The notes beneath the pieces are model-generated. The model ran no database searches. It was not told the DNA's origin and saw nothing but the letters and a program-made list of their open reading frames with translations. DNA of 64,000 bases from Deltaproteobacteria bacterium. Its GTDB lineage: Bacteria > Desulfobacterota > Binatia > HRBIN30 > JACQVA1. The position numbers and the translations under genes were made by a program. This document shows, piece after piece, positions 3,720 through 61,467 of this stretch (positions are counted from its first letter, which is position 1; each line of letters begins with the position of its first letter). The stretch spans positions 75,180-139,179 of the forward strand of contig JACQVA010000158.1 of the NCBI GenBank assembly GCA_016210005.1, written 5' to 3'.

Positions 3720-3825
3720 GCGCGGCGTCGATGCCCGCGGTGATCTCGTCCATCTCCGTCACGATGCGATGGCCGGTGACGCCGATGCGGCACGGTGGTG
3801 GCGGTGTGGGCTTATCGTTGGCCAT
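3720..3825 (-). pseudogene. N-terminal fragment (~35 codons) homologous to the SLOG gene at 1388-1948
   Basis: MANDKPTPPPPCRIGVTGHRIVTEMDEITAGIDAA then divergence. About 90 bp of nucleotide identity between 3722-3815 and 1858-1945. Confidence 0.45.
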
Positions 3826-31743: not shown

Positions 31744-32796
31744 TTACGGATGCAAACCGGCGCCTTCGATGCCCATTTCCTCGGGTAGCCCGAGCATGCA
31801 GTTGAGGTTCTGAATCGCGGAGCTGGCGGCGCCCTTTCCCAAGTTGTCGAGCGCGCCGAACGCCACCACGCGGCCGCGGCGCTCGTCGACATCGACGCCG
31901 AGGTGCACGAAGTTCGAGCCCGCGACCGCGGCCACGCTCGGATAGGGCAGATATTGCCAGCTCACCTTGGGATCTTTTTCGAGCGTGTTGACGCGCACGA
32001 AGTATTCGCCCTGGTAGAAGTCCCGATACAGCGCCAGCACCTCCGCGCGCGCTACCGGGCGTGTCAGGAAGCCGTGGCAATTGGCGAGGATGCCGCGGGT
32101 GAAGGGGCAGTAGTAGGGAGTGAAATGGATGGCCACGGGGGCGCCGGCCACGCCGGCCAGCTCCTGCTCGATCTCGTAGGTATGGCGGTGTTCGACCACA
32201 TTATAGGGAAACACAGTGTTACTGATCTCGCTATGATGTGTTGGCACCGATGGCTCGGCGCCGGCACCGGAGCTGCCCGACAGCCCGTCCACCACGATCC
32301 GATCCAATTCGATCAGGCGGGCTTTCACCAGCGGCGCCAGGGTGAGGATGGTGGTGTAAGCGAAGCAGCCCGGGTTGGCCACCAAGCGCGCCTTTTGAAT
32401 CGCCTGGCGGTGCAGCTCGGTGGCGCCGTAAGGAGCTTCCTCGACCAAGTGCCAGGAGAGATGCTTGGCCTGGTATACGCGCTCGAACAAGGCCGCGTCC
32501 TTGAGCCGGAAGTCCGAGCCGACATCCACGACCTTCGCCCCTTGCTGCAGGTAGCGTTCGGCGCGATTCATCGACTCGCGCGACGGCATGCACAGGAACA
32601 CCGCGTCACAGGCGGTGGCGTCCTCTTCCTTTACGAAGCGCAACCCGGCGCCGAGCAAATTGCGGTGAACGGCTTCGACCTGCTTATCGGCACGCGAGGT
32701 CACCCAGGCGATGCGATAGCGCGGATGGGTGAGCAGCAACCGCAGCAGCTCGCCGCCCGAGTAACCTGATCCACCGACAATGCCAACCGAGATATC
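31744..32796 (-). CDS. argC: N-acetyl-gamma-glutamyl-phosphate reductase
   Basis: ISVGIVGGSGYSGGELLRLL...; probable GTG start at 32796. Confidence 0.8.
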   Translation of the reverse strand, partial: DISVGIVGGSGYSGGELLRLLLTHPRYRIAWVTSRADKQVEAVHRNLLGAGLRFVKEEDATACDAVFLCMPSRESMNRAERYLQQGAKVVDVGSDFRLKDAALFERVYQAKHLSWHLVEEAPYGATELHRQAIQKARLVANPGCFAYTTILTLAPLVKARLIELDRIVVDGLSGSSGAGAEPSVPTHHSEISNTVFPYNVVEHRHTYEIEQELAGVAGAPVAIHFTPYYCPFTRGILANCHGFLTRPVARAEVLALYRDFYQGEYFVRVNTLEKDPKVSWQYLPYPSVAAVAGSNFVHLGVDVDERRGRVVAFGALDNLGKGAASSAIQNLNCMLGLPEEMGIEGAGLHP

Positions 32797-32897
32797 CCTG
32801 GCCACGCGCGTTTCCTCCCGCGCCGCGCACTCTAGCCGGATCACGCCGGCAACGAAAGCCGCGGTGGGACGCTTGTCGAATCCGCGCGCTGGGGCAG

Positions 32898-33755
32898 TTA
32901 CTCCAGCAGCTCCGCTTGCAATTCGCTCTCGGCCACGAACGCCGTCACCCGCAACAGCGCGCGGCTCTGGAGCAGCACCTGCCCCCACAGCAAAGACACG
33001 GTGACCCCGAAGGCGGAGGTGGCCGGCACGAACATCACCACCGAGCGGTACAGCAGGTAGCCGGCCCCGCCCAGCGCCACCAGCACGAGCGCGAGCAAGA
33101 AGGCGCGGGCGTCGCCCCGGACCACGAACCACCCGGCCCAGCCCATGGCCTGCAGCGCCCCCCCGCCCTTGCGCGCGGCGTACAGCCGCGCGTGATCGTG
33201 AATCGTCACCAGCAGGAGCAAGAGTGGGCCGCCGACCACTGTGGCGGCGGCGATGAGGTAGTAGCGCGCCATTTCGTCGGGGCTTTCTGCCAACCAGCGC
33301 ACCCCCAGCCAGGTGGCCGACGCCAGGCCGCCCAACACCAGCAGCTCAGCAGCCGTCGCCAGCAGCCACAAACGGGCAAACACCGGATACAGCCCGAAGG
33401 CCCGTTTCCAGAACTCAGCCCAGGTGACCGCCGCCCGCGCATCCTGCGCCGTGCCGGCGACGCCGGCGTTGAGCGCAATGGTGACCGCGAGCTGAGTCAG
33501 CCCCAAGACCGCGCCCACCGCCAACAGCAGCGTCAACGACTCGCGGTGATAGTGCCACAGCTCGATCAGAAGGTTGAGGCTGAGATCCTGCAACAGCGTG
33601 CGCGTCGCCAGCGATGCCTCAAGCGCCTGATCGAGCCAGTGCCCGGCGGCGATGCTGAAGGCCAAGCCGAAGAGCGCACCGACCGCCCACAGCAAGAGCA
33701 CCACCGGCCACCGGCGCACGGCGCCGGCCAAGCCCACTACCAGCACCCGCCCCAT
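32898..33755 (-). CDS. Hypothetical polytopic membrane protein
   Basis: Hydrophobic 285-aa ORF directly downstream of the peptidase gene. Confidence 0.4.
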   Translation of the reverse strand: MGRVLVVGLAGAVRRWPVVLLLWAVGALFGLAFSIAAGHWLDQALEASLATRTLLQDLSLNLLIELWHYHRESLTLLLAVGAVLGLTQLAVTIALNAGVAGTAQDARAAVTWAEFWKRAFGLYPVFARLWLLATAAELLVLGGLASATWLGVRWLAESPDEMARYYLIAAATVVGGPLLLLLVTIHDHARLYAARKGGGALQAMGWAGWFVVRGDARAFLLALVLVALGGAGYLLYRSVVMFVPATSAFGVTVSLLWGQVLLQSRALLRVTAFVAESELQAELLE

Positions 33756-35740
33756 CACAGCCCCGTCAGCAAGTGCAGCAGGTTTTGAAACCAAAAGCCC
33801 CAGCGCCCGGCCAAGCGAATCACACCGCGAGTCCCGGTGGCGCGCATGCGCGAGTTGTTGATTAGGTTCACATCCAGTGGCAGCTTGCCGTAGCGGTCAA
33901 TGAACGCATATTCGACCCGTTGCGGCCCGAGGTACTCGAAGCGGCGCCAGCGGTCGTGTCCGTCCCAGCGCTCCGCGGTCTCCGTCCCGTCCTCGAAACC
34001 AACGGTGATATCGACGGGCATGCGGACGCTGCCGAGACGTTCCACCACTACTTCGTTGCGGTAGCGCCGTTCCTTCACCGCCGGTGGGTCTTGCGCTTCC
34101 GCTGCCGGCGGCACCCGTACGCCGGCGAAGTCGGCCAACTCGTCGGTATCGACCCGAGTGACCGCATAGTCGAGCACGCCGGTGCCGTAGAGCGTCTGCT
34201 CAAAGTACCAGTCGAGGTCTTCGCCGGCGGCTTCGTTGAGCGCGTCGGTGAAATCGCGCGCGGTCGGATGGCGAAAGCGCCAGCGCTCGAAATACAGCCG
34301 CAGCGCCGCCCGCATGCGCTCGGGGCCGAGGTAGCGCTCCAGCGTGGTCAGGACCAGCGCCGTCTTGGCGTAGCTTACGCCGGTGTAGCTGCGCCGATCG
34401 AGGAATTGCCACGCCGCACGTGCCAGCGGATCATGCTGCGGGGCGGCCAGGTAGCTCCAGCGGTTAACCGACACCCCATCGAGCGCCAGCCCGAGCCAGT
34501 CGGCGTAGCTGCCGGGATGACCGTAGTGCTCGTCCATCACCTTGGTCTCGAAGTAAGCGTTGATGCCTTCGTCCAACCAAGCCGACTCGAACTCGTTGTT
34601 CGCTACCATGCCGTACCAGTACTGGTGGCCGAACTCGTGGATGGCGATCACCTCCGGCAGTCGCAGCGTCGCCGGCATCCACCAGGTGGTTCCGACGGTG
34701 ATCAACGTCGGGTACTCCATGCCGCCGGCGGCGCCGCCGCCATGGCCGGGATCGACGATGGTCAACTGCGGGTAGGGGTAGGGACCGAGCCAGTCGCGCA
34801 AGCGCACCATCGCGGCTTTGACCGCCTCGAGGTGGCGGCCGGCCTGGGCCGCGTGCTGCGGTTGCAACAACAACCGCAACGCCACGTCATCGAACCGATC
34901 GGCGATTTCGACAAAGCGCGGATCGACCGCCCAGGCGAAATCGTGCACGTCCTCGGCATGTAGGCGCAGCGTCTTGCTGCCGTCGCCGTTGTCGCGCTCG
35001 TCTTCGATCACGCCGGTGGCGCCGACAACGCTGTCGCGCGGAACCGTCAGGCGGACATCGTAGACGCCGAAGTCGGAGAAGAACTCGGTGGTCGCGTGGT
35101 ACTGATGGCAGTTCCACGTCCCGTTTTCGTAAACGCCGAGCTTGGGAAACCACTGTGCGACGAAATGGAACGGCCCGGCGTAACCCGTACGGGCAAAGAC
35201 TTTGGGAAGCTTGGCAGTGAAGTCGATCTCGATGCGCGCCACCGCACCGGCGGCAACCGCCGACTCCAGCGGGACACGGATTACCGTGCGATCGTCGGTG
35301 TTGTCGTCGTCGGGATGGACGTACTCGATGGCAGCGGTGCGGTCGGCACCGTCGACCGCCAGCCGCGTGATCTCCTGGTAACCCCAGCCCTCGGGCTTGC
35401 GCCGCTGCCAGCGCCGCAGCTCGGCACCCGCCGCCCGCATGAAAGTGGAGCGATTGTTGGCGAAAGCATTGAGGTAGAGGTGGAAGTAGAGGTCAACCGC
35501 GTTTTCGGTGCTGGTGTTGTGCCAGGTCAGCACCTGGCGGGCGGTGACGGTATGTTGCGCCACGTCGAGGCGCGCGTCGATTTCGTAGTTGGCGATTCGC
35601 GGCGCCAGCGGCTCCGCTGCCGTCGCGGCGGCAGCAAGCCACAGCACCGCCGCCGCAATCTGTCTCGTCAGCCCCACCGAGTGGCGGTTATATACGACTA
35701 GGCGGCTGCCCCGCCACCCCCGCAAAGGGGTGCGCGACAA
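33755..35740 (-). CDS. M1-family zinc metallopeptidase (aminopeptidase N-like), secreted
   Basis: HEFGHQYWYG (HExxH) followed by NEFESAWLDEG; signal-peptide-like N-terminus. Confidence 0.8.
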   Translation of the reverse strand: MSRTPLRGWRGSRLVVYNRHSVGLTRQIAAAVLWLAAAATAAEPLAPRIANYEIDARLDVAQHTVTARQVLTWHNTSTENAVDLYFHLYLNAFANNRSTFMRAAGAELRRWQRRKPEGWGYQEITRLAVDGADRTAAIEYVHPDDDNTDDRTVIRVPLESAVAAGAVARIEIDFTAKLPKVFARTGYAGPFHFVAQWFPKLGVYENGTWNCHQYHATTEFFSDFGVYDVRLTVPRDSVVGATGVIEDERDNGDGSKTLRLHAEDVHDFAWAVDPRFVEIADRFDDVALRLLLQPQHAAQAGRHLEAVKAAMVRLRDWLGPYPYPQLTIVDPGHGGGAAGGMEYPTLITVGTTWWMPATLRLPEVIAIHEFGHQYWYGMVANNEFESAWLDEGINAYFETKVMDEHYGHPGSYADWLGLALDGVSVNRWSYLAAPQHDPLARAAWQFLDRRSYTGVSYAKTALVLTTLERYLGPERMRAALRLYFERWRFRHPTARDFTDALNEAAGEDLDWYFEQTLYGTGVLDYAVTRVDTDELADFAGVRVPPAAEAQDPPAVKERRYRNEVVVERLGSVRMPVDITVGFEDGTETAERWDGHDRWRRFEYLGPQRVEYAFIDRYGKLPLDVNLINNSRMRATGTRGVIRLAGRWGFWFQNLLHLLTGL

Positions 35741-46815: not shown

Positions 46816-48101
46816 CCTTGGGAAACGGCGCAGCGAGTGTGGCCGCAGTTCCACCGGCGGCTGATCGAGAGGCGCGCGGCGCGCCCTGGGAACTACCGTG
46901 GGGTTGGGAGTGGATTCCGCTTGGAGACCTCTGCCACCTGGTTAACGGGCGGGCCTTCAAGCCGAGCGAGTGGTCGGATGTGGGGCTCCCTATTGTTCGG
47001 ATTCAGAACCTGAACGATCCTTCGAAGCCCTTCAACTACTTCAATGGGGAGCCGAGCCCGAAACACCTCGTCAACGATCGCGACGTCCTCATCTCCTGGT
47101 CCGGAACGCCGGGCACGTCGTTCGGCGCGTTCCTGTGGAACCGCGGCAGGGCACTCCTGAACCAGCACATCTATCGAGCGGACCTCGACCATGAACGAAG
47201 CGAACCATTGTATCTCGTCCACGCCGTGAACGTGAGGCTTGATGAGATGATCCGACGCGCGCACGGCGGAGTGGGCCTGGGACACATCACCAAGGGCGAA
47301 CTCGAACGAGTCCGTCTCCCGATTCCGTTTCCGCAAGAGCCAGAACGATCCCTGGACGTCCAGCGCCGCATCGTGGCGCGGATTGAGGCGCTGCTGGCCG
47401 AGATGAAGGAAGCCCGTGCCCTCGCCGAGGACATCCGCAGCGACACCGACCGGGTCATGGATGCTGCGGTGGAGGAAGCAATGTCCCAGTTGGGGCCGGG
47501 CAGGCAGGCACTGATTGAGGTGCTCGACGGAAAGCCACGAAATGGTTGGTCGCCGCAATGCGACAATGATCCGGCCGGCGCGCCCGTGCTAAAGCTCGGT
47601 GCCGTGCTAGGCTTTCGCTTCAACCCAGGGGCGATCAAGTACACGAACATCAAGGTCGACCGCAAAGCTCACTACTGGCTGAACCCCGGCGACATCCTAA
47701 TCTCACGGAGTAACACCCCGGATTTGGTGGGCCACGCGGCCATCTACGGCGGGGAGCCGCATCCCTGCATCTACCCAGACCTGCTCGTGCGTATGCGCGT
47801 CAGAACTGATGCGGCAGACGCACAGTTCGTCGTCTACTGGTTGCGCAGCAGGGAGGCGCGCGAATACGTCGCCGCGCACGCCAGCGGCGCGAGTTCTACG
47901 ATGAAGAAGATCACGCAAGGCGATGTCTGTGAGCTGCCGTTCCCGTACGTCTGCGTCGAGTTGCAGCGAGCAATCGTGGCGCAGCTCGACACGGTCCAAA
48001 CCGAGGTCAACGAAATGTGCCGACTGCAAGCTCATGACGCGGAGTTGCTCGATCAGGTGGAGCAGGCGATCCTGGAGCGGGCGTTCCGGGGAGAGCTGTG
48101 A
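46812..48101 (+). CDS. hsdS: Type I restriction-modification specificity subunit
   Basis: Two target-recognition-domain halves with conserved central and C-terminal helices (...LQRAIVAQLDTVQTEVNEMCRLQAHDAELLDQ); overlaps hsdM stop. Confidence 0.85.
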   Translation: MTLGNGAASVAAVPPAADREARGAPWELPWGWEWIPLGDLCHLVNGRAFKPSEWSDVGLPIVRIQNLNDPSKPFNYFNGEPSPKHLVNDRDVLISWSGTPGTSFGAFLWNRGRALLNQHIYRADLDHERSEPLYLVHAVNVRLDEMIRRAHGGVGLGHITKGELERVRLPIPFPQEPERSLDVQRRIVARIEALLAEMKEARALAEDIRSDTDRVMDAAVEEAMSQLGPGRQALIEVLDGKPRNGWSPQCDNDPAGAPVLKLGAVLGFRFNPGAIKYTNIKVDRKAHYWLNPGDILISRSNTPDLVGHAAIYGGEPHPCIYPDLLVRMRVRTDAADAQFVVYWLRSREAREYVAAHASGASSTMKKITQGDVCELPFPYVCVELQRAIVAQLDTVQTEVNEMCRLQAHDAELLDQVEQAILERAFRGEL

Positions 48102-52189: not shown

Positions 52190-52249
52190 CGCCAGCCAGG
52201 GGCCGCGTGCATGACCGGGGTGGAGTTGCAGCAGGCGATGTCTGCGAAT

Positions 52250-52392
52250 CCCCTTTCCAACGGGTCGGCGTGGACGAGCAGCGTGCTTTCGTCGCGCTCG
52301 ATGCCGTCAACGGGGAGGTCGACGAGATGTGCCGCCTGGAGGCCCGGGACGTCGAACTGCTCATCCAACACCTTCAGCGGGGAGTTGTAAGT
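52250..52392 (+). pseudogene. hsdS C-terminal remnant (~45 codons)
   Basis: ESPFQRVGVDEQRAFVALDAVNGEVDEMCRLEARDVELLIQHLQ parallels the hsdS C-terminus ELPFPYVCVELQRAIVAQLDTVQTEVNEMCRLQAHDAELLDQVEQ at 47930-48070. Confidence 0.5.
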
Positions 52393-53400
52393 ATGGCAAC
52401 GGCGGAACAGGTGAAGGCCCTCTTGAAGAGCTACTCGCAGGGCGACAGCGAGCACTTCGTCTCCGTTGCGCTCCAGATCGCCGCGCATGAGGCGCGTACC
52501 GGCAAGGGCAAGCTTGCACAGGAGCTCCGGAACCTCGTCGACGACATCAAGCGAAGAGATGCGGCGGGCAGGATTGGTGGAGCCGTGCCGATCGCGAGGC
52601 CGACGGGGGAACTGGCGGGCCTCCTGGCAGTGACCTATCCAAAGCCCCGCCTTTCGGAGATGGTCCTCAGCGACAAGACATGCGAGCAGGTCGAACGCGT
52701 CCTGCGCGAGTACCGCCAACGCGACAAACTGCGCGCACATGGCCTCTCCGCTCGTCGCAAGCTCTTGCTGATTGGACCGCCTGGCTGTGGCAAGACGATG
52801 ACCGCATCTGTCTTGGCCGGCGAGCTGAAACTGCCGCTCTTCTCTGTGCAGCTCCACGGGCTGATCACCAAGTTCATGGGCGAGACGGCGGCCAAGCTGC
52901 ACGTGGTGTTCGAGGCGATGAGACAGACGCGTGGCGTCTATTTCTTCGACGAGTTCGACGCCATCGGCGCCGATCGCGGCACCAAGAATGACGTCGGCGA
53001 AATCCGGCGCGTCCTCAATTCGTTCCTCCAGTTCCTGGAGCAAGATGACTCCGAGAGTATCATCATCGCCGCAACCAACTACGTCGGCATGCTCGATGAG
53101 GCGCTGTTTCGGCGCTTTGACGACGTCATCCGCTACGGGCGACCTGCAGACCGCCAGGTTGACGATCTCGTGCGCAACCGGCTCGCGGGGCTTCTCGTGA
53201 AACGACCCGACTGGGCACACATTTGCAAAGCCGCGGCTGGTCTGAGCCACGCTGATATTGCCCGCGCCTGTGACAACGCGGCCAAGGACTGCATCCTTCG
53301 CGGGACAAAGCGCATCAACACGGCGATGCTTGCCTCGGTTCTCGGCGAACGTCGCGGTTCGGAGCACTCTGAGGGCGCTCACGATTCGCGCGTCGGCTGA
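52393..53400 (+). CDS. Classic-clade AAA family ATPase
   Basis: LLLIGPPGCGKTMTA Walker A, VYFFDEFD Walker B, second region of homology; start MATAEQVKALL. Confidence 0.75.
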   Translation: MATAEQVKALLKSYSQGDSEHFVSVALQIAAHEARTGKGKLAQELRNLVDDIKRRDAAGRIGGAVPIARPTGELAGLLAVTYPKPRLSEMVLSDKTCEQVERVLREYRQRDKLRAHGLSARRKLLLIGPPGCGKTMTASVLAGELKLPLFSVQLHGLITKFMGETAAKLHVVFEAMRQTRGVYFFDEFDAIGADRGTKNDVGEIRRVLNSFLQFLEQDDSESIIIAATNYVGMLDEALFRRFDDVIRYGRPADRQVDDLVRNRLAGLLVKRPDWAHICKAAAGLSHADIARACDNAAKDCILRGTKRINTAMLASVLGERRGSEHSEGAHDSRVG

Positions 53401-53574
53401 TCATGGCCAACCTGCCGCATCTCTTTCCGCCGGGAACAGCGGCCGCCAAACAGTACACCTACGCTCGGGAGGTCAAAGGTAGGCCACTCAAGGTCCCAAC
53501 TCGTGATCGCGTACCACACGGGACCAAGCTGATCCACGGCCTACGAGACGCGGAACAACAACGAACAGCTCTAC

Positions 53575-53744
53575 ATCCGCACCGGCAACTCGACGCGGTT
53601 GCTGACGACGAAGGAAGCCATCGACTACTGCAAGAGTCGGTGGAAGATAGCATGATGGTGCGGCACTACGGCTTCACGGACGAGGAGTTCGACCTTTTCG
53701 CCAACTACGTCATCAGGTACCGCCTGGACGGCGAGGCGGACTGA
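53575..53744 (+). repeat. Repeat A1: degenerate AlbA_2-gene 3-prime fragment + downstream conserved ~85 bp
   Basis: ...YIRTGNSTRLLTTKEAIDYCKSRWKIA* then tgatggtgcggcactacgg...; ~90% nt identity to A2/A3. Confidence 0.7.
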
Positions 53745-54931
53745 TGCCGCGAAAACCCGCCAAGGTGAAGACATCCGAGCATGGCCTGAACTTCACCGCC
53801 CTGGTCGAAGCGGTCCGGCAGGTGCACGAGCGAAGCGCCGCCACAGCTGCTCGTGCGGTGAATGTGAGCCTCACCCTGCGTAACTGGCTCATCGGGCGGC
53901 ACATCTGCGAGTACGAGCAGCGCGGTGCTGACCGCGCCGAGTACGGCGACCGTCTGCTGGAGCGGTTGGCCGAGGCGTTGCGCCGGAGGGACGCGGACAT
54001 GTCCGCCCGATCACTCCGGCTCTACCGCCAGTTTTACCTCGTCTATCCCGAGATTTGGCAATCGGCGATTGCCAAGTCCTCAGGCAGCCACTTGTCGGAA
54101 CCGATTTGGCGGTCACTGATTGCCAAATCCAGCACAAGCGGTCTTTTCCGGGAACCGACGACTCCCAAATCAAAGACATCCCGACGACTGGGGATTGATG
54201 GGCGCCTGCTCATCGCTCGGCTTTCGTTCACCCATCTGGCTGAACTCATTGCCATCGACGACCCACTCAAACGCGCCTTCTACGAGGTGGAATGCATTCG
54301 CGGCAACTGGTCGGTGCGGGCGCTCAAGCGCCAGATCGCGACCCTGTACTTCGAGCGCTCGGGGCTCTCCACCAACAAGGAAGACCTTGCGGCGCTGACC
54401 CACGGCGCCGCCGAAGAGGCCGAGCCGAAACTCGCTATTCGTGACCCCTATGTTTTCGAGTTCCTCGGCCTTCGGCCAAAGGAGGCGGTCAGCGAATCCG
54501 ACCTGGAGGATGCCCTGCTCGACAAGCTGCAGGACTTTCTCCTGGAACTGGGCCACGGCTTCTGTTTCGAGGCGCGACAGAAGAGCATCGTCATCGGCAA
54601 GACGCGCGGCTTTGTGGACCTCGTCTTCTATCACCGCGTTCTCAAGTGCCATGTGCTCATCGAGCTGAAGGTCGACGAGTTTCGCCACGAACACCTTGGC
54701 CAGCTCAACACCTACGTCACCTGGTGTCGGCGGCACATGATGGCCGAACACGACAACCCGCCGGTGGGCCTGCTGCTCTGCACGCAGAAGGACCATGCTC
54801 TGGTGGAGTACGCGCTCGCCGGCATGGACAGCGGCCTGTTCGTCTCCAAGTACCAGCTCGAACTGCCGAGCAAGGAAGACCTGAGGCGTTTCCTGGAGGA
54901 AAAGCGCCGGGAGATGAACGACCGTGGATAA
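53744..54931 (+). CDS. DUF1016/YhcG-family PD-(D/E)xK nuclease domain protein
   Basis: C-terminal GFCFEARQKSIVIGKTRGFVDLVFYHRVLKCHVLIELKVDEF restriction-endonuclease-like core; 395 aa. Confidence 0.7.
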   Translation: MPRKPAKVKTSEHGLNFTALVEAVRQVHERSAATAARAVNVSLTLRNWLIGRHICEYEQRGADRAEYGDRLLERLAEALRRRDADMSARSLRLYRQFYLVYPEIWQSAIAKSSGSHLSEPIWRSLIAKSSTSGLFREPTTPKSKTSRRLGIDGRLLIARLSFTHLAELIAIDDPLKRAFYEVECIRGNWSVRALKRQIATLYFERSGLSTNKEDLAALTHGAAEEAEPKLAIRDPYVFEFLGLRPKEAVSESDLEDALLDKLQDFLLELGHGFCFEARQKSIVIGKTRGFVDLVFYHRVLKCHVLIELKVDEFRHEHLGQLNTYVTWCRRHMMAEHDNPPVGLLLCTQKDHALVEYALAGMDSGLFVSKYQLELPSKEDLRRFLEEKRREMNDRG

Positions 54932-55496
54932 ACATTGCCTTGCCCGAGGGGGGGATCTCTATCCGGACATCTTGTGTACCCGCCTTGGAGAAGACGCACC
55001 AGCAACGCTCACGGCAATCGGCTCCCTGGCACATCTCGCCCAACGCAAGACAGCGCTCTTCTGCTCCGCGCGCACCCCCGGCCACATCATCCTCGCCGCC
55101 TACGACCAGGCCGCGCGCTGGCGCGACGCGGGCCGCTGCGTCATCAGCGGCTTCCATTCCCCGGTGGAGAAAGAATGCCTGCGCATTCTCCTGCGCGGCC
55201 GGCAACCCGTCATCATCTGCCTCGCTCGCGGAGTGGAGGGTATGCGCCTGCCGGCCGAATGGAAAGCGGCGATGGCGGACAACCGATTGCTGGTCCTGTC
55301 GCCGTTCCCCGCATCGGAACGACGGGTGACCAAGAGCCTGGCCACGGACCGCAATCGACTCGTGGCTGCTCTAGCCGATGAGGTCGTGTTCGGCCATATC
55401 ACACCGGGCGGCCACCTGGATGAATTGAGGTGGCTCATTGTTAGCTGGCGAGTTCCCCAGCGCGTGCTCTCGGATGGAGCCGAGCTACCGTCATGA
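54924..55496 (+). CDS. DprA/Smf-like SLOG Rossmann-domain protein (stand-alone)
   Basis: ALFCSARTPGHIILAAYDQAARWRDAGRCVISGFHSPVEKECL...DRNRLVAALADEVVF matches the DprA Rossmann core; overlaps the DUF1016 gene by 8 nt. Confidence 0.6.
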   Translation: MDKHCLARGGDLYPDILCTRLGEDAPATLTAIGSLAHLAQRKTALFCSARTPGHIILAAYDQAARWRDAGRCVISGFHSPVEKECLRILLRGRQPVIICLARGVEGMRLPAEWKAAMADNRLLVLSPFPASERRVTKSLATDRNRLVAALADEVVFGHITPGGHLDELRWLIVSWRVPQRVLSDGAELPS

Positions 55497-55790
55497 ACAC
55501 CGTCGGCAAAGACCTCACCCCCCAACTCGCCATCACCTTCCACTCCCTCGATGGCAAAGACCTCTGCCGCGTCACCATCCAACCCAGCCCGCGGCCGGTG
55601 TTCATCAAGGAAGGCCAGTTCGAGCACCTGTACATCCGCACCGGCAACTCGACGCGGTTGCTGACGACGAAGGAAGCGATCGAGTACTGCAGGACGCGGT
55701 GGAAGACAGCGTGATGACGCGGCACTGCATCAACTACGACATCAAGTACCGCATGGGCGGCGAGGCGGAGGCCGAGGACGAATGACCTAC
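55493..55790 (+). repeat. Repeat A2: AlbA_2 (Schlafen-like) domain C-terminal fragment ORF (73 aa) + downstream conserved segment
   Basis: MNTVGKDLTPQLAITFHSLDGKDLCRVTIQPSPRPVFIKEGQFEHLYIRTGNSTRLLTTKEAIEYCRTRW; start overlaps DprA-like stop (ATGA). Confidence 0.7.
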
Positions 55791-56033
55791 ACGTTGACGG
55801 CGCATGCGAAGAGGGTGCTGGCGGAGAGGGAGATCCGGCTCGATTGGCTCGAACGCACACTGAACGATCCGGTGTTGCGCCGACCCGATCCGGACGATAC
55901 TTCGATCGAGCGTCTCTATCGCCCGATCCCTGAGTTCGGTGGGCGGGTGTTGCGCGTGGCGGTGAACTCCACGGTTGCACCGGCCCGCGTCGTGAGCGTA
56001 TTCTTTGACCGGAGCATGAGAGGCAAACTATGA
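55782..56033 (+). CDS. DUF4258 family protein (putative toxin)
   Basis: MTYTLTAHAKRVLAEREIRLDWLERTLNDP... DUF4258 pattern; 83 aa. Confidence 0.55.
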   Translation: MTYTLTAHAKRVLAEREIRLDWLERTLNDPVLRRPDPDDTSIERLYRPIPEFGGRVLRVAVNSTVAPARVVSVFFDRSMRGKL

Positions 56034-56248
56034 GACTCCACGTGGACCAGGAAGCCGATGCGCTGTACCTGCGCTTGGACGACTCGCCAATCGTCGAATC
56101 CGAGGAGGTCTCCCCAGGTGTGGTGTTGGACTTCAACGCCGACAATCAGGTCGTGGGCGTCGAGATTCTGCGCCTCTCCCAACGCGCCCCCGGGCTGGAT
56201 GCGGGCAAGTTGGTGTTCGAGACGGCGCGAGCGACCGCGGCGCAGTAA
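56030..56248 (+). CDS. DUF2283 family protein (putative antitoxin of DUF4258)
   Basis: MRLHVDQEADALYLRLDDSPIVESEEV...VGVEIL; 4-nt overlap with DUF4258 gene. Confidence 0.55.
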   Translation: MRLHVDQEADALYLRLDDSPIVESEEVSPGVVLDFNADNQVVGVEILRLSQRAPGLDAGKLVFETARATAAQ

Positions 56249-56311
56249 CGCCACACACCGGACCATCGGTGCATCATTGCGCCGAGTGTTTGGCGACGGC
56301 GTTGTCCACGG

Positions 56312-56866
56312 ATGACCCCGTTGACCGTTGTGGCCGGTGCTCCCAGCTACCCAGATCGATTGCGAGAGCGCCTGGGTGCAGACGCGCCCGCGGAGCTGAG
56401 GTTGGTGGGCAACCTCGACGGGCTGGACCTGCCGAAGACAGCGCTCTTCTGCTCCGCGAGCAGTCCGGGTCACACCATCCTCGCCGCCTACGACCAGGCC
56501 GCACGCTGGCGCGACGAGGGCCGTTGCGTCATCAGCGGCTTCCATTCCCCGGTGGAGAAAGAATGCCTGCGCATTCTCCTGCGCGGTCGACAACCCGTCA
56601 TCGTCTGCCTCGCTCGCGGATTGCAAGGCATGCGCCTGCCGGCCGAATGGAAGCAGCCGCTGGCGGACAATCGGTTGCTCATCTTGTCGCAGTTCCCCGC
56701 CGCGGCGCGACGGGTCACCAAGGACCTCGCCACCGACCGCAATCGCCTCGTGGCGGCGCTGGCGGACGAGGTCGTGTTCGCGCACGTCGCCCCGGGAGGG
56801 CAGGTTGATGAATTGAAGCAGCTCGTCACGCGCTGGGGCATCCCGTACCAAACGGTCGTAGGATGA
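56312..56866 (+). CDS. DprA/Smf-like SLOG Rossmann-domain protein, paralog of 54924-55496
   Basis: ~85% aa identity to the first copy over the Rossmann core (KTALFCSASSPGHTILAAYDQAARWRDEGRCVISGFHSPVEKECL...). Confidence 0.6.
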   Translation: MTPLTVVAGAPSYPDRLRERLGADAPAELRLVGNLDGLDLPKTALFCSASSPGHTILAAYDQAARWRDEGRCVISGFHSPVEKECLRILLRGRQPVIVCLARGLQGMRLPAEWKQPLADNRLLILSQFPAAARRVTKDLATDRNRLVAALADEVVFAHVAPGGQVDELKQLVTRWGIPYQTVVG

Positions 56867-56950
56867 GAACCGTGGCGCTCAGGCCGGCTGCCGGATGTGA
56901 CTCGACCGCCCGTTGACAGCCGCAACGGAAATGGGTGAGAGGAGACCTCT

Positions 56951-58108
56951 ATGGATTCCGGAACGCCAACGCTGCGCTCTCGCGAGCGTTGGTACCGCAA
57001 GCTGGCGCGCCGTCCCGAATACGCTGCCGGCGTCACGCTGTTGGGATTATTGGCGGGGGTGCTCGGCTCTGTCTACAGCGCAGACATCGGGCGCGCGTTC
57101 CCATTTTCATGGATTGGTGGCACGGTTCCATAGCCGCCCGCTCTCTTCTGGGGCGCCGCGATCCTCACCGCCCTGTTCTTCTTTCTGCGCCAGGGAGCCA
57201 TTGACGCTGCTCGCCGAGAATCGGAGGAGAACCTCGGGCGTCGTTCGGATGAGCTGGTGAAGCTGATTAGCACCCTCCCTCCCAAAGGGTTTTTCTCCAC
57301 GTTCCAGCGATTGTACTGGCATTGCAGTGCCGTGCTGACAGATGTCCTCAACGTGCCGGCCGAAGAGCTGCCTGCTGCATCCGTTGAACGCGCGATTCGA
57401 ATCGTACTGAGTGAGGTTGCAGCGCTGGCGCATGACTTCGACGGCAGAGCCAGGGACGTGTTGTACGCTGCCAACATCATGCTGTTTCGGCCTGGCGAAT
57501 CGCTGCCCTCAGGAAGGACGGCATTGACCGAACGCCTACGCTTTGCCGAACCCGAAACCGACCTGACCGCCCTGGAAGGCGTCCTGGATCTGTGCGTGGA
57601 GCTTTCGACCACCACGCAAGCGGAAGACTACGGCCCCGATAAGGATCTGCAACCGATGGCGCTGCCTGTGCCCAGAGTCAAACGTAGCCCCGATGGGCGG
57701 CGAAGCCGCGTACTGCCGGGAGCGCCGCGCGCATATTCTGAACGTCTGTTGGACATTTACGCCGACACGCACACCCTGGGACAATGGTGCCGCGAGAAGG
57801 GCGACTTCAGCGAGACCGTGTGCACGCAGGTCGATGACTACTTCCGCAGCCAGCAGTCAGTGCGCAGCTTCGTGGCGGTTCCGCTGATGCAACTGCGCGA
57901 CGCGCGACCCCTGGCGGTGTTGAACATTCATCGCAACAGCGAGGGAATCCTGCGAACGAGAGCGGGATCGGACCCCGAGGTTTTGGATCAGTTCTCCGCT
58001 CTGCTCGGTCCGTTTTCGTCGACGTTGCTCTTGTTGCTGGCGCGCCTGGATCGATCGACGGCGCTCGGCGCACCATCTGTGTCGGGCAGCCAAGGGGTGC
58101 GGCATTAG
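56951..58108 (+). pseudogene. Membrane-anchored protein (2 TM + ~320-aa soluble domain) interrupted by an in-frame TAG at 57131-57133
   Basis: ORFs 56951..57133 and 57257..58108 are in the same frame; the sequence between (PPALFWGAAILTALFFFLRQ...) is a second TM helix. Alternatively a soluble protein starting at ATG 57257. Confidence 0.4.
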
Positions 58109-58351
58109 CGTGTTGCCTATGCTATGTCTTTTCGCCCCGGAGGAGGCACATGATGCGAGACACGAAGATCACCGTTGAGGAGCTCAACCGCAGGCTCGAC
58201 CAAACTGCCCGAGACCTGAAGCAGTTCATCTCCGAGCCCGACCGTCGCGAACGCTCGGTTGTCTTCCGGGACGGCGACCACGTGTCGGTGCGTATTCTGC
58301 CGAACAAGCCGGACGACGAGTAGCGCTGACTCCCTGATGATGTGAGCGCCT

Positions 58352-58760
58352 GTGCGCGCATTCGCGCCTCTGATCGGCGTCAACGACGACGCCACGGTCA
58401 TCGGCCTGCAGTACGATTACCAGGCCGTCCACAAGAAGAGCCGCGACGGCTACGAGCTGTTCCTCCATGACCTGTTGCTCAACAACGTCGGCAAAGACCT
58501 TACCCCGCAGCTCGGAATCACGTTCCACTCGCTCGACGGCAAAGACCTCTGCCTCGTCGCCATCCAACCCAGCCCGCGCCCGGTGTTCATCAAGGAGGGC
58601 CAGTTCGAGCACCTCTACCTCCGCAACGGCAATTCGACGCGGTTGTTGACGACGAAGGAAGCGATCGACTACTGCAAGACGCGGTGGAGGTCGGGGTGAT
58701 GCTTGCAGACGCAGCCGAGATCCCCTACCGCACGGGCCGCGGTGCAAATGGGGCGGCCGG
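58352..58760 (+). repeat. Repeat A3: longest AlbA_2 C-terminal fragment ORF (115 aa) + downstream segment
   Basis: LIGVNDDATVIGLQYDY...VFIKEGQFEHLYLRNGNSTRLLTTKEAIDYCKTRW. Confidence 0.7.
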
Positions 58761-59099
58761 ATGAAGCTGCCCAACGCGCATCTGGCGGTGGTCGAGCGCG
58801 AGAAGATCACCGGCTACCTGCTTAATCCTGCGCATCCCGATAACGGTGGCAAAGCCGCCTTCTTCCAAGCACAGGGCTTCAAAGGCAGCGACTGGCAGAC
58901 GCTGGCCGACGCCTTTCGCAAGCTGGCCGTGAGCGACGACGTCACCGAAGCTGTGGAATCAAGGCACGGTCGGAAGTATATTCTCGACGGTCGTATTGAG
59001 ACCCCAAGCGGCAAGGTGTCAGTTGTGCGAACTGTTTGGATTGTAGATCGAGGGCTTGACGCGCCGCGACTGATCACGGCGTATCCGCGTGAAGAATGA
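58761..59099 (+). CDS. DUF6883 family protein (putative toxin)
   Basis: MKLPNAHLAVVEREKITGYLLNPAHPDNGGKAAFF... typical DUF6883. Confidence 0.5.
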   Translation: MKLPNAHLAVVEREKITGYLLNPAHPDNGGKAAFFQAQGFKGSDWQTLADAFRKLAVSDDVTEAVESRHGRKYILDGRIETPSGKVSVVRTVWIVDRGLDAPRLITAYPREE

Positions 59100-59108
59100 G
59101 AGGGAGCC

Positions 59109-59345
59109 ATGATTCGCGAACACGAACGCGTAGTGCTCACAACCCCAGCCCCTAACGAAGGGCTCGAACCTGGTGACGTTGGAACCGTGGTGCACGTATA
59201 CAGGGACGGCGAGGCATATGAGGTGGAGTTCGTTGCCCTCGACGGGCACACCGCGGCGGTGGTTACCCTTGAGGCATCGCAAGTTCGGCCGGTCTCGCAT
59301 CGGGAGATCACCCACGCTCGCGAATTCTCGGCAGCTAGCTCGTGA
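59109..59345 (+). CDS. DUF4926 family protein (partner of DUF6883)
   Basis: MIREHERVVLTTPAPNEGLEPGDVGTVVHVYRDGEAYEVEF typical DUF4926. Confidence 0.55.
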   Translation: MIREHERVVLTTPAPNEGLEPGDVGTVVHVYRDGEAYEVEFVALDGHTAAVVTLEASQVRPVSHREITHAREFSAASS

Positions 59346-59348
59346 ACT

Positions 59349-59560
59349 GTGCCAGCGCGGACATCCTCCAGACGTCACCCCGCAGCTTTCGCCATCACGT
59401 TTCGCGCCCTCGGCGGCAAAGACCTCTCCTGCGTCGCCATCCAACCCCGCCCGCGCCCGGTGTTCATCAAGGAAGGCCAGTTCGAGCACCTGTACATTCG
59501 CACCGGCAACTCGACCCGGCTGCTGACGGCGCCGGTGTTGTGGCATTGCTGGCGCAATAA
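59349..59560 (+). repeat. Repeat A4: degenerate AlbA_2 3-prime fragment
   Basis: ...KDLSCVAIQPRPRPVFIKEGQFEHLYIRTGNSTRLLTA then divergence. Confidence 0.6.
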
Positions 59561-59628
59561 ACGAATTCCCGCGAAGAACTTGGATGCCCAGCCGTGCCTG
59601 GGCTATAGGACGACAAGGGAGGCGCGGG

Positions 59629-61467
59629 ATGACTAACACGATGCGTGCGGCCGCGAGCCGCCGGACTTTTCTCAAGGCGGTGGGAGGCGTGCTCGGCGCC
59701 GCCACCCTGCCGATCGGCGCAACCCTGGCGCGGGGCGAGCGGGAGGCAACCGAGCCCGACGTGGTTGTGATCGGCGGCGGCTTCGCCGGCGTCACCGCGG
59801 CGCGCGAGCTCGGTCACGCGGGCCTGCGTGTGCTGCTGCTCGAAGCGCGCAACCGACTCGGCGGGCGTACGTTGACCACCAAGGTCGGCGAAGAGATTTT
59901 CGAGCTCGGCGGCACCTGGATCCACTCAACGCAGCCACACGTGTGGGCGGAGGCCAACCGCTACGGTCTCGAGCTCGTCGAAACCCCGGATGGGTTTCCC
60001 GAGCGGATCGTGTGGTGGGACGGCGAGCAGACGAAGGAAGCGGGAATACTGGACGCCCTACCGCTCGTCGGCTCCGCGCTCTGCGCCAGCCCCGACGACG
60101 TTGTCCCCGAAATGCCCTTGCCCGTGCTGCATGCCTTTGCGCTCCTCGACCAAGTCATGTCGAAGTTCCATGCGGAGGCAGCCACGGCCTTTCCGCGGCC
60201 GTTCGATCCGTTCTTCTCCGACGCCTGGCAGGCGAGCGACCGCCTCTCGATCCGCGATCGGCTCGACTCGATGGGCCTCTCCGCATCCCGGCGCGCGCTG
60301 CTCGAGGGCGTGCTCGGCGCTAGCGCACACGGAGCCTTCGAGGAGGCCGGCTTGGCCGACATGCTCCGCTGGTGGGCGCTGTCCGGAAGCGACCTGCAGC
60401 GCTACTCCGACACCGTGGCGCGCTTTCGCTTCCGCCAGGGCACCTCACGCCTGATCGACGCCATGATCGCCGATGGCAAGCCCGACGTGCGCCTGCAAAG
60501 CCCGGTGACCCGCGTCGTGCAAACGGGCGGGCGCGTCGAGGTCACGATCGCCGGCGGCGAGACGTTTCGCGCACGCGCCGTGATCGCAGCGCTTCCCATG
60601 AACGTTCTCGCGAACATCGACTTCTCGCCCGCGCTCGACCCGGCGAAGATCGCGGCGTCAAAGGAACGGCACGCCGGAGCCGGCGTCAAAGCCTACATCC
60701 GCGTGCGCGGCGAGGTGCCGAGGCTGCTCGCGCTCGCGCCCGAGCCCGAGCCTTTCTCGACACTGATGACCGCGCACGGCGGCAAGGACGGCGGCGTGCT
60801 CATCGGCTTCGGCACTGATCCGAAGAAGATCGACATCCACGCGACCGGCGCGGTGCAACAGGCGGTTCGGCGCTTTCTGCCGGCCGCCGAGGTCACCGAG
60901 GTCTTCGCTTACGACTGGCATCTGGATCCCTACTCGCTCGGCACGTGGTGCATTCTTCGCAAAGGACAGATGACGAAGTACTTCGCCGCTCTTCGCGCCC
61001 CCGAGGGGCTCGTGCACTTCGCCGGCGGAGACTTTGCGCTCGGATTTCGCGGCTTCATCGACGGCGCGATCGAGAGCGGCACACGCACCGCGCGCGTGGT
61101 GATCGAGCGCCTCGCAGGCAGTCTCGCGCTTGGGGCAGAGGCGGAGACGGCACCGGCGGCCACGGCGGGGGCGCCAGGCGAAGCCGCCTTCGAACCCTGC
61201 GCGGTGTGTCACTCGGTCGACGAATCGGGCAAAGCCGGCATCGGCCCGAACCTGCACGGCGTCGTCGGGCGCAAAGCCGCCAGCGACCCGTCGTTCGCAT
61301 ACTCCGAAGCGCTCCGCAGCCGCGGGATCACGTGGACCGAGAAGGACCTCGACGCGTTTCTCGCCGACCCGCAGGCCTTCATCCCGGGCACGCAGATGCC
61401 GTTCACCGGCCTCAAGGACCCGGCCGATCGCGCGGCGGTGATCCGGTTCCTGCTCAGCGCGAAATAG
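59629..61467 (+). CDS. Flavin-containing amine oxidase fused to a C-terminal class I cytochrome c domain; Tat signal peptide
   Basis: SRRTFLKAVGG twin-arginine motif; VVVIGGGFAGVTAARELGHAG FAD Rossmann; C-terminal CAVCH heme site with downstream Met ligand region. Confidence 0.7.
   Translation: MTNTMRAAASRRTFLKAVGGVLGAATLPIGATLARGEREATEPDVVVIGGGFAGVTAARELGHAGLRVLLLEARNRLGGRTLTTKVGEEIFELGGTWIHSTQPHVWAEANRYGLELVETPDGFPERIVWWDGEQTKEAGILDALPLVGSALCASPDDVVPEMPLPVLHAFALLDQVMSKFHAEAATAFPRPFDPFFSDAWQASDRLSIRDRLDSMGLSASRRALLEGVLGASAHGAFEEAGLADMLRWWALSGSDLQRYSDTVARFRFRQGTSRLIDAMIADGKPDVRLQSPVTRVVQTGGRVEVTIAGGETFRARAVIAALPMNVLANIDFSPALDPAKIAASKERHAGAGVKAYIRVRGEVPRLLALAPEPEPFSTLMTAHGGKDGGVLIGFGTDPKKIDIHATGAVQQAVRRFLPAAEVTEVFAYDWHLDPYSLGTWCILRKGQMTKYFAALRAPEGLVHFAGGDFALGFRGFIDGAIESGTRTARVVIERLAGSLALGAEAETAPAATAGAPGEAAFEPCAVCHSVDESGKAGIGPNLHGVVGRKAASDPSFAYSEALRSRGITWTEKDLDAFLADPQAFIPGTQMPFTGLKDPADRAAVIRFLLSAK

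What the first reader, a model, noticed from the sequence alone, without database searches (positions are those of the whole stretch)
53500..59650. Second cassette array bounded by 3-prime fragments of an AlbA_2 (Schlafen-like) gene
Four direct copies (A1-A4; 53575, 55493, 58352, 59349) of the last 80-350 bp of an AlbA_2-domain gene (...VFIKEGQFEHLYIRTGNSTRLLTTKEAI[DE]YC[KR]TRW*) plus ~85 bp of conserved downstream sequence. They share ~90% nt identity and separate the modules DUF1016 nuclease + DprA-like SLOG / DUF4258-DUF2283 + DprA-like SLOG + membrane protein / DUF6883-DUF4926. Two of the fragments are retained as ORFs whose ATG overlaps the stop of the preceding gene. Like the WD40 array, this looks like repeated insertion into, or cassette exchange at, the 3-prime end of a single target gene, giving two independent accretion arrays in one 64-kb window.
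Basis: seen in the sequence. Interest (0 to 1): 0.75.

Follow-up and report, generated by a model that had tools for sequence, protein, structure and literature searches.

The report
Toxin cassette array with gene-tail spacers
A row of small toxin–antidote and defence gene sets is separated by decaying copies of the tail of a restriction-enzyme gene; related bacteria carry the same sets in different orders, which suggests ordinary recombination at these tails shuffles the sets without a dedicated enzyme.

Summary
Four direct copies of the 3' end of an AlbA_2-coding sequence lie at 53562-53655, 55494-55714, 58346-58699 and 59370-59533, and they separate three gene modules. All four are truncated remnants. 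The parent is not a small AlbA_2 gene. It is the C-terminal domain of a ~1,330-aa type IIG restriction-methyltransferase, which is intact only in other phyla.

The same architecture recurs on at least seven independent contigs, two from Candidatus Binatia MAGs and the rest unclassified metagenome contigs. I found 38 unique fragments, with 21 left-junction classes and 18 right-flank classes, freely recombined. Each left junction travels with its upstream cassette. Sites inside the repeat show recombination (PHI p<0.0005). No integrase, hairpin or att-like core was found.

Best explanation: toxin-immunity and defence cassettes accrete and shuffle at the tail of a defence island, by homology-anchored insertion followed by homologous recombination between the tails. 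The tails are scars that double as portable homology. The closest analogue is the orphan toxin/immunity arrays of Rhs/CDI loci, but here the repeat ends at its own stop codon and the variable parts are separate genes.

Verdict: new variant of a known kind, moderate-to-high interest. The mechanism is inferred, not shown.

The parts
53403..53561 (+). 53-codon stub ORF directly after IetA, fused to A1. Probably the N-terminus of the IetA partner gene, cut by the deletion that made the left edge of the array.
   Evidence: It starts 3 nt after the IetA stop. Its only relatives are N-termini of other proteins, and one of these has a weak IetS match (E=1.8e-4). The identity is inconclusive.
53562..53655 (+). 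A1: last 28 codons plus stop of the AlbA_2 tail (ref 483-567).
   Evidence: 92% to L014.
53652..53744 (+). Small ORF (30 aa, MMVRHYGFTDEEFDLFANYVIRYRLDGEAD). Its start overlaps the A1 stop, and its stop overlaps the DUF1016 start.
   Evidence: Sequence. It belongs to a family of 76 small proteins.
53744..54931 (+). Cassette 1, gene 1: DUF1016/YhcG PD-(D/E)XK nuclease (PADLOC candidate defence gene PDC-S02).
54924..55496 (+). Cassette 1, gene 2: DprA-like protein, PsyrA-like. Its stop codon abuts A2.
   Evidence: The same DprA-to-ref-356 junction occurs in L005 (twice) and L035.
55494..55714 (+). A2: AlbA_2 tail from ref 356, an intact 73-codon ORF.
55714..55785 (+). Small ORF (23 aa, MTRHCINYDIKYRMGGEAEAEDE). 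It is an internally deleted form of the A1 small ORF and overlaps both the A2 stop and the DUF4258 start.
55782..56248 (+). Cassette 2a: DUF4258 (55782-56033; Ntox49/colicin-like BECR RNase toxin family) plus DUF2283 (56030-56248; presumed antitoxin).
   Evidence: family assignment from bioRxiv 10.64898/2026.08.28.747851.
56312..56866 (+). Cassette 2b: second DprA-like/PsyrA-like gene (72% aa identity to the first, 83-86% at nucleotide level).
57257..58323 (+). Cassette 2c: a 283-aa protein with no family (57257-58108) plus a 57-aa ORF (58150-58323). The same pair is found in L010; L013 carries the 57-aa ORF after an unrelated 250-aa gene.
58346..58699 (+). A3: the longest AlbA_2 fragment (Pfam AlbA_2 positions 36-117). 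It is an L010-type junction that has lost a further 131 nt.
58699..58764 (+). Different small ORF (21 aa) that bridges the A3 stop and the DUF6883 start.
58761..59345 (+). Cassette 3: DUF6883 (58761-59099; BECR-Tox3 RNase toxin family) plus DUF4926 (59109-59345; presumed immunity).
59370..59533 (+). A4: AlbA_2 fragment ref 372-531. It has indels at its 5' end, and its last ~36 nt and trailer are deleted. This is the right edge of the array, and the amine oxidase gene follows.
   Evidence: The same DUF4926-to-ref-372 junction occurs in L005, L036 and L038, where the tail is complete.

Best explanation
The region is the downstream end of a defence island: type I R-M, then PDC-M23, then IetA, then the array. 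It is an integrase-free cassette array.

Each unit has three elements:
- a 5'-truncated remnant of the last 90-350 nt of a type IIG restriction-methyltransferase gene, the part that encodes its C-terminal AlbA_2 domain;
- a short trailing ORF or its remnant;
- one to five small genes. These are BECR-type RNase toxin plus immunity pairs, a DUF1016 nuclease with a DprA-like protein, and others.

Proposed mechanism (inferred):
1. A cassette that sat behind a functional tail enters a resident locus by homologous pairing in the tail.
2. An illegitimate join forms at its far end (homology-facilitated illegitimate recombination, or Campbell-type integration of a circle).
3. This pushes the resident tail and its cassette downstream as a 5'-truncated 'orphan'.
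4. Repetition builds an array.
5. The ~85-96%-identical tails then act as portable homology for RecA-type recombination. That recombination excises, reinserts, swaps and deletes cassettes within and between genomes.
6. Deletions erode the useless 5' parts of the tails up to the stop codon of the upstream gene.

The tails themselves are non-functional scars. What the array delivers is a changeable stock of toxin/immunity and defence genes, probably co-transcribed with the island.
For: Shown:
1. All copies are truncated. The parent is a ~1,330-aa Eco57I/MmeI-type enzyme with a C-terminal AlbA_2 domain.
2. The architecture recurs on independent contigs: L005 (4 tails), L036 (4), L039 (5), and L035, L037, L014 and L046 (2 each).
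3. In L014 the longest copy heads an array: long tail, DUF4258/DUF2283, short tail, DUF6883/DUF4926.
4. Single tails sit directly after the last gene of unrelated defence systems: hsdS in L011, ZorD in L013, and a type IIG plus SNF2 helicase pair in L007.
5. Left junctions are inherited with the upstream cassette: DprA to ref 356 in four copies, and DUF4926 to ref 372 in four copies. The same junction is nevertheless followed by up to four different downstream cassettes, and the same downstream cassette is preceded by up to five different junctions.
6. There is recombination inside the 122-nt core. 458 of 1,035 site pairs are incompatible. PHI is 0.43 against a permuted 0.52±0.026, with 0 of 2,000 permutations as low. 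Variants near ref 550 follow the downstream class and variants near ref 490 follow the upstream class.
7. Divergence among tails is coding-type, with heterozygosity 3.3/3.4/9.8 at codon positions 1/2/3. This is expected if each tail once ended a functional gene. Six tails now carry frameshifts or stops.
8. Erosion is visible: A3 equals the L010 junction minus 131 nt. A1 is fused to a gene stub. A4 has lost its 3' end.
9. No integrase or transposase was found among the window ORFs scanned. The repeat has no hairpin (z = -0.3 to +2.0). No promoter, terminator or Rfam match was found.

The displacement model itself is established for CDI/Rhs orphans (PMC4927057).
Against: - No intact parent gene was found in the window or on any Binatia-type contig. 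Even the L014 copy is truncated about 190 nt upstream of ref 1.
- No circular intermediate or population-level polymorphism at one orthologous locus was observed. The arrays compared lie at different genomic sites.
- Tail cores are 85-96% identical across contigs, as conserved as or more conserved than the linked protein-coding cassettes (66-97%). Most tails remain open reading frames. Selection on the tail as DNA, RNA or peptide is therefore not excluded.
- Many cassette starts overlap the tail's stop codon, and many upstream stops abut the tail. This could reflect function (translational coupling) rather than mere trimming.
- Crossover mapping rests on few polymorphic sites.
Confidence: 0.6

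Rival explanations
1. The tail plus small ORF is a functional leader kept by selection. It would be translated, or at least transcribed, so that ribosomes terminating at its stop codon re-initiate on the promoterless toxin/immunity cassette. Alternatively it carries an internal promoter or regulatory RNA. On this view the repeats are a required 5' module of each cassette, and recombination is a side effect.
For: - Stop/start overlaps link the tail to the small ORF and the small ORF to the first cassette gene at A1, A2 and A3, and in most cassette classes elsewhere.
- Tails are at least as conserved as the cassette genes.
- Most tails remain open with conserved residues.
- The minimal retained piece always includes the last 18-28 codons.
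- The small ORF is a family of 76 proteins.
Against: - Tail lengths range from 56 to more than 560 nt.
- Six tails have frameshifts or in-frame stops.
- A1 has no start codon of its own in the AlbA_2 frame.
- No sigma-70-like promoter, Rfam family or significant fold was found in the core.
- A4 persists with no cassette behind it.
- Trailers differ between cassette classes (18 right-flank classes).
Confidence: 0.17
2. The array is built by site-specific recombination, like an integron or a tandem accretion of integrative elements at the 3' end of a target gene. A recombinase encoded elsewhere would act on a core site in the AlbA_2 tail.
For: - The cassettes are same-strand, promoterless and mostly toxin-antitoxin, as in chromosomal integrons.
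- Some 5' boundaries cluster at ref 349-372 and 408-415.
- At least one crossover (L036_3126) lies within ~10 nt of the tail's end.
Against: - No integrase was found among the window ORFs scanned. In the gene lists of L005, L007, L010, L011 and L013 the only mobility genes are an IS66 set and a transposase-like DUF772 gene, both upstream and well away from the tails.
- There is no inverted-repeat or hairpin structure.
- The clustered boundaries are identical by descent with their upstream gene.
- Both edges of the repeat are ragged.
- Linkage of variants switches from the upstream to the downstream cassette along the tail, and PHI is significant. This fits crossovers at many positions.
Confidence: 0.1
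3. The array arose by local tandem duplication of one ancestral unit (DprA-like gene plus AlbA_2 tail) within this genome, followed by divergence and insertions. No exchange between genomes was involved.
For: The DprA-like gene is also duplicated (54981-55280 vs 56369-56668, 83% nt identity), and A2 follows the first DprA copy directly.
Against: - The three modules share no genes other than DprA.
- Tails in the window are no more alike (87-93%) than tails from other contigs (up to 96%).
- Identical junctions and cassettes occur elsewhere in other orders.
Confidence: 0.05

Closest known systems
Orphan (displaced) toxin/immunity modules downstream of cdiBAI and rhs loci in polymorphic toxin systems
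   Same: - Both are same-strand tandem arrays.
- In both, each unit begins with a 5'-truncated piece of a conserved region of a large upstream gene, followed by a variable toxin and its immunity gene.
- The fragment lengths vary.
- The fragments provide homology for recombination (PMC4927057).
- The toxins here, DUF4258/Ntox49 and DUF6883/BECR-Tox3, belong to RNase folds also used by polymorphic toxins.
   Different: - The conserved fragment here is the extreme 3' end of the gene and finishes with its own stop codon.
- The toxins are free-standing ORFs, not in-frame C-terminal fusions.
- The parent is an intracellular type IIG restriction enzyme, not a secreted or delivered protein.
- Non-toxin cargo also occurs (DUF1016 nuclease, DprA-like proteins, whole defence systems).
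- No intact main gene heads the array in this window.
Chromosomal integron cassette arrays / CALINs
   Same: Both hold many small, promoterless, co-oriented cassettes rich in toxin-antitoxin pairs. The cassettes are separated by a repeated ~100-300-nt element, and their order differs between relatives.
   Different: There is no IntI and no attC hairpin. The repeat is a decaying coding fragment with ragged ends. Crossovers appear distributed along the repeat, which fits homologous rather than site-specific recombination.
Silent 5'-truncated cassettes used in gene conversion (Neisseria pilS/pilE; hsdS half-gene shufflons)
   Same: Both have arrays of promoterless, 5'-truncated copies of one gene kept next to each other, which recombine through shared conserved segments.
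   Different: In those systems the variable information lies inside the repeated gene. Here the repeats are the constant part, and the variable information is the unrelated genes between them. This comparison rests on my own knowledge and was not tested here.
Tandem accretion of integrative elements (ICE/CIME) at the 3' end of a target gene
   Same: Both show direct repeats of a gene's 3' end bounding successive inserted segments.
   Different: In ICE/CIME accretion the repeats are att sites of fixed extent made by an integrase. Here there is no integrase, the repeat extents vary, and the cassettes are only 0.6-2.6 kb. This comparison rests on my own knowledge.

Membership tests
Integron / CALIN | IntI tyrosine recombinase next to the array (complete integron) | tested here: not met
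   Pfam scans of the called genes in 42.6-61.5 kb and of the larger ORFs elsewhere in the window found no integrase. A CALIN would not need one.
Integron / CALIN | attC site after each cassette: an imperfect inverted repeat that folds as a single-stranded hairpin | tested here: not met
   Single-strand DNA folds of the repeat core on both strands give z = -0.33, +0.49, +1.04 and +1.98 against shuffles. The inverted-repeat scan found no arm pair that recurs across the four tails.
Integron / CALIN | Co-oriented, mostly promoterless small cassettes | tested here: met
   All genes from 53744 to 59345 are on the + strand. No promoter-like or terminator-like site was found on that strand within the array.
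Orphan modules of polymorphic toxin loci (Rhs/CDI type) | Each unit starts with a 5'-truncated fragment of a conserved region of a large gene | tested here: met
   A1-A4 start at ref 483, 356, 247 and 372 of the tail. The parent is ~1,330 aa.
Orphan modules of polymorphic toxin loci (Rhs/CDI type) | Variable toxin domain fused in frame to the conserved fragment | tested here: not met
   Every complete tail ends at its own stop codon (...TRWK*). The toxins are separate ORFs.
Orphan modules of polymorphic toxin loci (Rhs/CDI type) | Intact main gene upstream of the array | tested here: not met
   None is present in the window. The longest related copy (L014) is also truncated.
Orphan modules of polymorphic toxin loci (Rhs/CDI type) | Toxin followed by a cognate immunity gene | tested here: inconclusive
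   The pairs DUF4258+DUF2283 and DUF6883+DUF4926 are present. They are assigned as toxin and immunity by family and neighbourhood only. Activity was not tested.
Site-specific tandem accretion at a gene's 3' end (ICE/CIME type) | Repeats of constant extent sharing one crossover core, plus an integrase | tested here: not met
   There are 21 different left boundaries and 18 right flanks among 38 tails. No integrase was found.
AlbA_2 (PF04326) domain proteins | Complete AlbA_2 domain (profile positions 1-118) above the gathering score | tested here: not met
   A3 scores 29.2 bits but covers only positions 36-117. A2 scores 20.8 bits, below the 25.3 cut-off, and covers positions 66-117. The A4 ORF gave no hit, and the ORF spanning A1 (a different frame) gave none.
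Type IIG restriction-methyltransferase with C-terminal AlbA_2 (parent of the tails) | Eco57I/MmeI methyltransferase region and AlbA_2 domain in one ~1,300-aa ORF | tested here: met
   This holds for the distant homologues only. L016 (1,362 aa) has Eco57I, MmeI_Mtase and AlbA_2 domains and matches PADLOC REase_MTase_IIG at 1e-123. L019 and L021-L024 carry ORFs of 1,315-1,337 codons. It is not met by any Binatia-type copy.

The most novel reading that the evidence does not exclude
The AlbA_2 tail plus its trailing small ORF could be a dedicated docking module of a previously unrecognised cassette-capture system. Such a system would be an integron-like platform that works without a site-specific integrase. 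It might rely on host RecA or DprA-type functions, or on an unlinked recombinase, to recruit toxin/immunity and defence genes to the end of defence islands. The tail would be kept by selection both as the recombination substrate and as a translational-coupling leader.
Probability: 0.12. Interest if true: 0.85.

Novelty: new variant of a known kind. Interest (0 to 1): 0.6.

Why it matters
Defence islands and toxin-antitoxin repertoires turn over quickly, yet outside integrons and polymorphic-toxin loci the mechanics of that turnover are poorly understood.

These arrays show a recurrent, lineage-wide architecture. A decaying gene tail serves as the common joint between interchangeable cassettes, and apparently only general recombination is needed. 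If confirmed, the 'orphan module' logic would extend from secreted toxins to intracellular toxin-immunity pairs and defence genes.

It would also give a simple sequence signature for finding such arrays: repeated 3' fragments of one gene. The same window holds a second array built on WD40-gene tails and an hsdS-tail duplication, which suggests the process is general in this organism.

Tried and rejected
- Integron/attC reading: rejected. There is no integrase, no hairpin and no inverted repeats.
- Promoter, terminator or known RNA in the repeat: nothing found.
- Independent small AlbA_2 genes: rejected. The copies are truncated or frameshifted and derive from a large parent gene.
- Misassembly: rejected. 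An independent assembly (L006) and many independent contigs show the same structure.
- Small ORF as the C-terminal remnant of a large methyltransferase. I recalled a similar C-terminal motif, and the small ORF weakly resembles the parent's 'AHLYGLTEEEFAYIL' linker (tblastn E 0.03-1.6). However, the database search returned only 29-72-aa proteins. This remains unresolved and is not claimed.
- Stub 53403-53561 as IetS: only weak support.
- Shared flanking genes to find an orthologous locus with a different array: none among the fetched loci.
- Look-up of the NCBI contig beyond the window through the A4 ORF product: not on record.
- Literature searches for DUF4258+DUF2283 and for AlbA_2 + type IIG: no papers.

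Full report
OBSERVATION

The four copies are real. Repeat finding, direct reading and alignment place them at 53562-53655 (A1), 55494-55714 (A2), 58346-58699 (A3) and 59370-59533 (A4).

Coordinates below use the longest related copy, the L014 gene, as reference ('ref' 1-567). On that scale the copies start at ref 483, 356, 247 and 372. They are 86-92% identical to it, with E-values from 6e-29 to 4e-120. A4 also lacks its last ~36 nt. An independent Logan assembly reproduces the DprA2-to-A4 stretch exactly.

Pfam confirms the modules between the copies:
- DUF1016/YhcG nuclease plus a DprA-like protein.
- DUF4258 plus DUF2283, then a second DprA-like protein, an unassigned 283-aa protein and a 57-aa ORF.
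- DUF6883 plus DUF4926.

Each complete tail is followed by a 21-30-codon ORF. Its start overlaps the tail's stop, and its stop overlaps the first cassette gene. The A1 and A2 small ORFs are related, and A2 is an internally deleted form. The A3 small ORF is different.

WHAT THE REPEATED PIECE IS

None of the four is a complete gene. A3 covers Pfam AlbA_2 positions 36-117 and A2 covers 66-117, below the gathering score. A1 is 28 codons. A4 has indels and no 3' end.

Homologues of 180-200 aa at first looked like the full-length gene. However, the L014 copy continues upstream, in frame, into sequence that ends in stop codons. In other phyla the same sequence is the C-terminus of 1,315-1,364-codon ORFs. 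These ORFs carry Eco57I/MmeI methyltransferase regions plus AlbA_2 and match PADLOC type IIG restriction-methyltransferase models at 1e-123.

The repeats are therefore 3' remnants of a large defence gene. No intact copy was seen in the window or on any contig carrying Binatia-type tails.

CONTEXT

The source is a MAG labelled Deltaproteobacteria bacterium (HY699 locus tags). Its nearest relatives are Candidatus Binatia MAGs.

Upstream of the array, all on the + strand, the order is:
- hsdR, hsdM and hsdS.
- The candidate system PDC-M23 A/B.
- IetA without IetS.

A 53-codon stub follows IetA and is fused to A1, so the left edge of the array is a deletion junction. Downstream of A4 come an amine oxidase and a membrane protein. 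No integrase or transposase was found among the window ORFs scanned. There is no sigma-70-like promoter, terminator or Rfam match in the array.

COMPARATIVE EVIDENCE

Look-ups and scans gave 74 loci. BLAST mapping shows the same architecture on many independent contigs:
- L005 has four tails, in the order DUF6883/DUF4926, then DUF4258/DUF2283/DprA, then DUF1016/DprA, then DUF6883/DUF4926. It lies between a helicase-DUF559 gene set and the ATP synthase operon.
- L036 has four tails and L039 has five.
- L035, L037, L046 and L014 have two each.
- Further cassettes on these contigs include PIN-like, zinc-finger antitoxin-like and other small pairs.
- In L014 the longest copy heads the array.
- Single tails directly follow the last gene of unrelated defence systems: type I hsdS (L011), Zorya ZorD (L013), and a type IIG enzyme plus SNF2 helicase (L007).
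- A cyanobacterial-type contig (L074) shows a 266-aa tail left behind where a type II R-M system replaced the methyltransferase part.

Distant intact homologues carry no arrays within 10 kb.

ANATOMY OF THE JOINTS

An alignment of 38 unique tails shows that universal homology ends at the tail's stop codon. After the stop there are 18 trailer classes. On the 5' side there are 21 junction classes.

Junctions are inherited with the upstream gene. The DprA stop joins ref 356 in A2, in L005 (twice) and in L035. DUF4926 joins ref 372 in A4, L005, L036 and L038.

The same junction is nevertheless followed by up to four different downstream cassettes, and one downstream class is preceded by up to five different junctions. 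This combinatorial pattern requires exchange inside the tail.

Several results support exchange at many positions:
- 458 of 1,035 informative site pairs in the 122-nt core fail the four-gamete criterion.
- Neighbouring sites are more compatible than distant ones. PHI is 0.43 against a permuted 0.52±0.026, with 0 of 2,000 permutations as low.
- Variants at ref 550-557 follow the downstream class, and variants around ref 490 follow the upstream class or locus.

No common motif precedes the junctions, and the core has no significant fold.

STATE OF THE TAILS

Divergence among tails is concentrated at third codon positions. Heterozygosity is 3.3, 3.4 and 9.8 for positions 1, 2 and 3. Most differences therefore arose while the sequences ended functional genes.

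Within junction classes the bias weakens to 54:50:108. Six tails carry frameshifts or in-frame stops.

A3 shares its leader with L010 but has lost a further 131 nt. This shows stepwise erosion from the 5' side.

Tail cores are 85-96% identical between contigs, whereas cassette genes are 66-97% identical. Tails within the window are no more alike than tails from different contigs.

MECHANISM

The data fit the displacement model worked out for CDI/Rhs orphan modules (PMC4927057).

An incoming tail-plus-cassette pairs with the resident tail. Its far end joins illegitimately, and the resident tail plus cassette is pushed downstream as a 5'-truncated copy. The accumulated tails then serve as homology for excision, reinsertion and exchange, while deletions trim the useless 5' parts.

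Shown by the data:
- The tails are truncated and eroding.
- Junctions are inherited with their upstream cassettes.
- Cassettes are combinatorially shuffled.
- Recombination occurs within the tail.
- There are no integron features.

Inferred:
- The direction of events.
- RecA dependence.
- Movement between genomes.
- Co-transcription of the array.

The main unresolved rival is that the tail and small ORF are kept because they couple translation into the promoterless cassette. The stop/start overlaps and the high conservation fit that reading. The variable lengths, the frameshifts and the cassette-less A4 do not.

COMPARISON WITH KNOWN SYSTEMS

The array works like orphan toxin/immunity arrays, and its toxins belong to RNase folds used by polymorphic toxins. 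DUF4258 is Ntox49/colicin-like, and DUF6883 is BECR-Tox3 with DUF4926 as its partner.

It is not a member of that family. The toxins are not fused to the conserved fragment, the parent is an intracellular restriction enzyme, and no main gene is present.

It resembles integron arrays in content and orientation but fails the attC and integrase tests.

I found no paper describing this arrangement, though the searchable library is limited.

VERDICT

The feature is real and recurrent, and it is a new variant of a known kind. Interest is moderate to high, chiefly because of three things: it is lineage-wide, the evidence for shuffling is clean, and two further examples of 3'-tail repeats lie in the same window.

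Noticed in passing
Six or seven copies (76-286 nt, 63-96% identical) of the 3' end of a WD40-type gene on the minus strand separate cassettes that look, by eye and untested by family scans, like PIN-like, MqsA-like zinc-finger and TIR-like genes, on both strands. The logic is the same as in the AlbA_2 array.
   Followed up: partly
window 47910-48056 and 52225-52368: A diverged copy of the hsdS 3' end (61% aa over 49 residues, E=3e-10; ~72% nt) lies just after the PDC-M23 helicase gene. The two-gene PDC-M23 system is therefore also bracketed by direct repeats of the 3' end of the upstream gene. This is a third instance of the pattern in one window.
   Followed up: partly
window 52396-53561: IetA (AAA ATPase, PADLOC 2.6e-72) has no IetS partner. 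Only a 53-codon stub follows, fused to A1. The Ietat system here is probably inactivated by the deletion that formed the left edge of the array.
   Followed up: partly
L039 2651-2788, L033 1032-1154, L005 12023-12151; proteins P0170-P0245: The trailing small ORF belongs to a family of 76 small proteins (29-72 aa) with the motif IDEIDRVLAxHYGFTDEELDFI...INYDIKYRMG. Binatia-type members carry an 8-residue insert (PSTKLRAG) between FI and INYDIKY, present in one to three tandem copies. This looks like a short repetitive DNA element.
   Followed up: partly
L074 4587-8801: On a contig from another lineage, a 266-aa AlbA_2 tail survives next to a type II R-M pair (EcoO109I-like) and a transposase-like gene. 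These occupy the place of the methyltransferase part, downstream of an SNF2 helicase. Retention of the tail after replacement of the 5' part is thus not confined to Binatia.
   Followed up: no
L020, L025, L028, L048, L053, L056: This is a second architecture of the same AlbA_2 subfamily: an N-terminal response-regulator receiver domain fused to AlbA_2 (~295-325 aa).
   Followed up: no
window 22232-22998: Six tandem 126-nt units are the TPR_10/TPR_12 repeats of a 684-aa protein. It lies next to a NACHT/AAA_16 ATPase and a DUF4062 protein, so this is probably a STAND-type conflict gene cluster. Ordinary.
   Followed up: partly
window 1859-1939 and 3721-3801: An 81-nt direct repeat (91% identical) lies 1.86 kb apart in a region where the ORFs have no Pfam family. 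Unexplained.
   Followed up: no
window 31744-35740 vs L011 16851-20282: The semialdehyde dehydrogenase, 298-aa and M1 peptidase gene trio is syntenic with L011, which carries a type I R-M plus a single AlbA_2 tail nearby. The genomes are related but the island positions differ.
   Followed up: no
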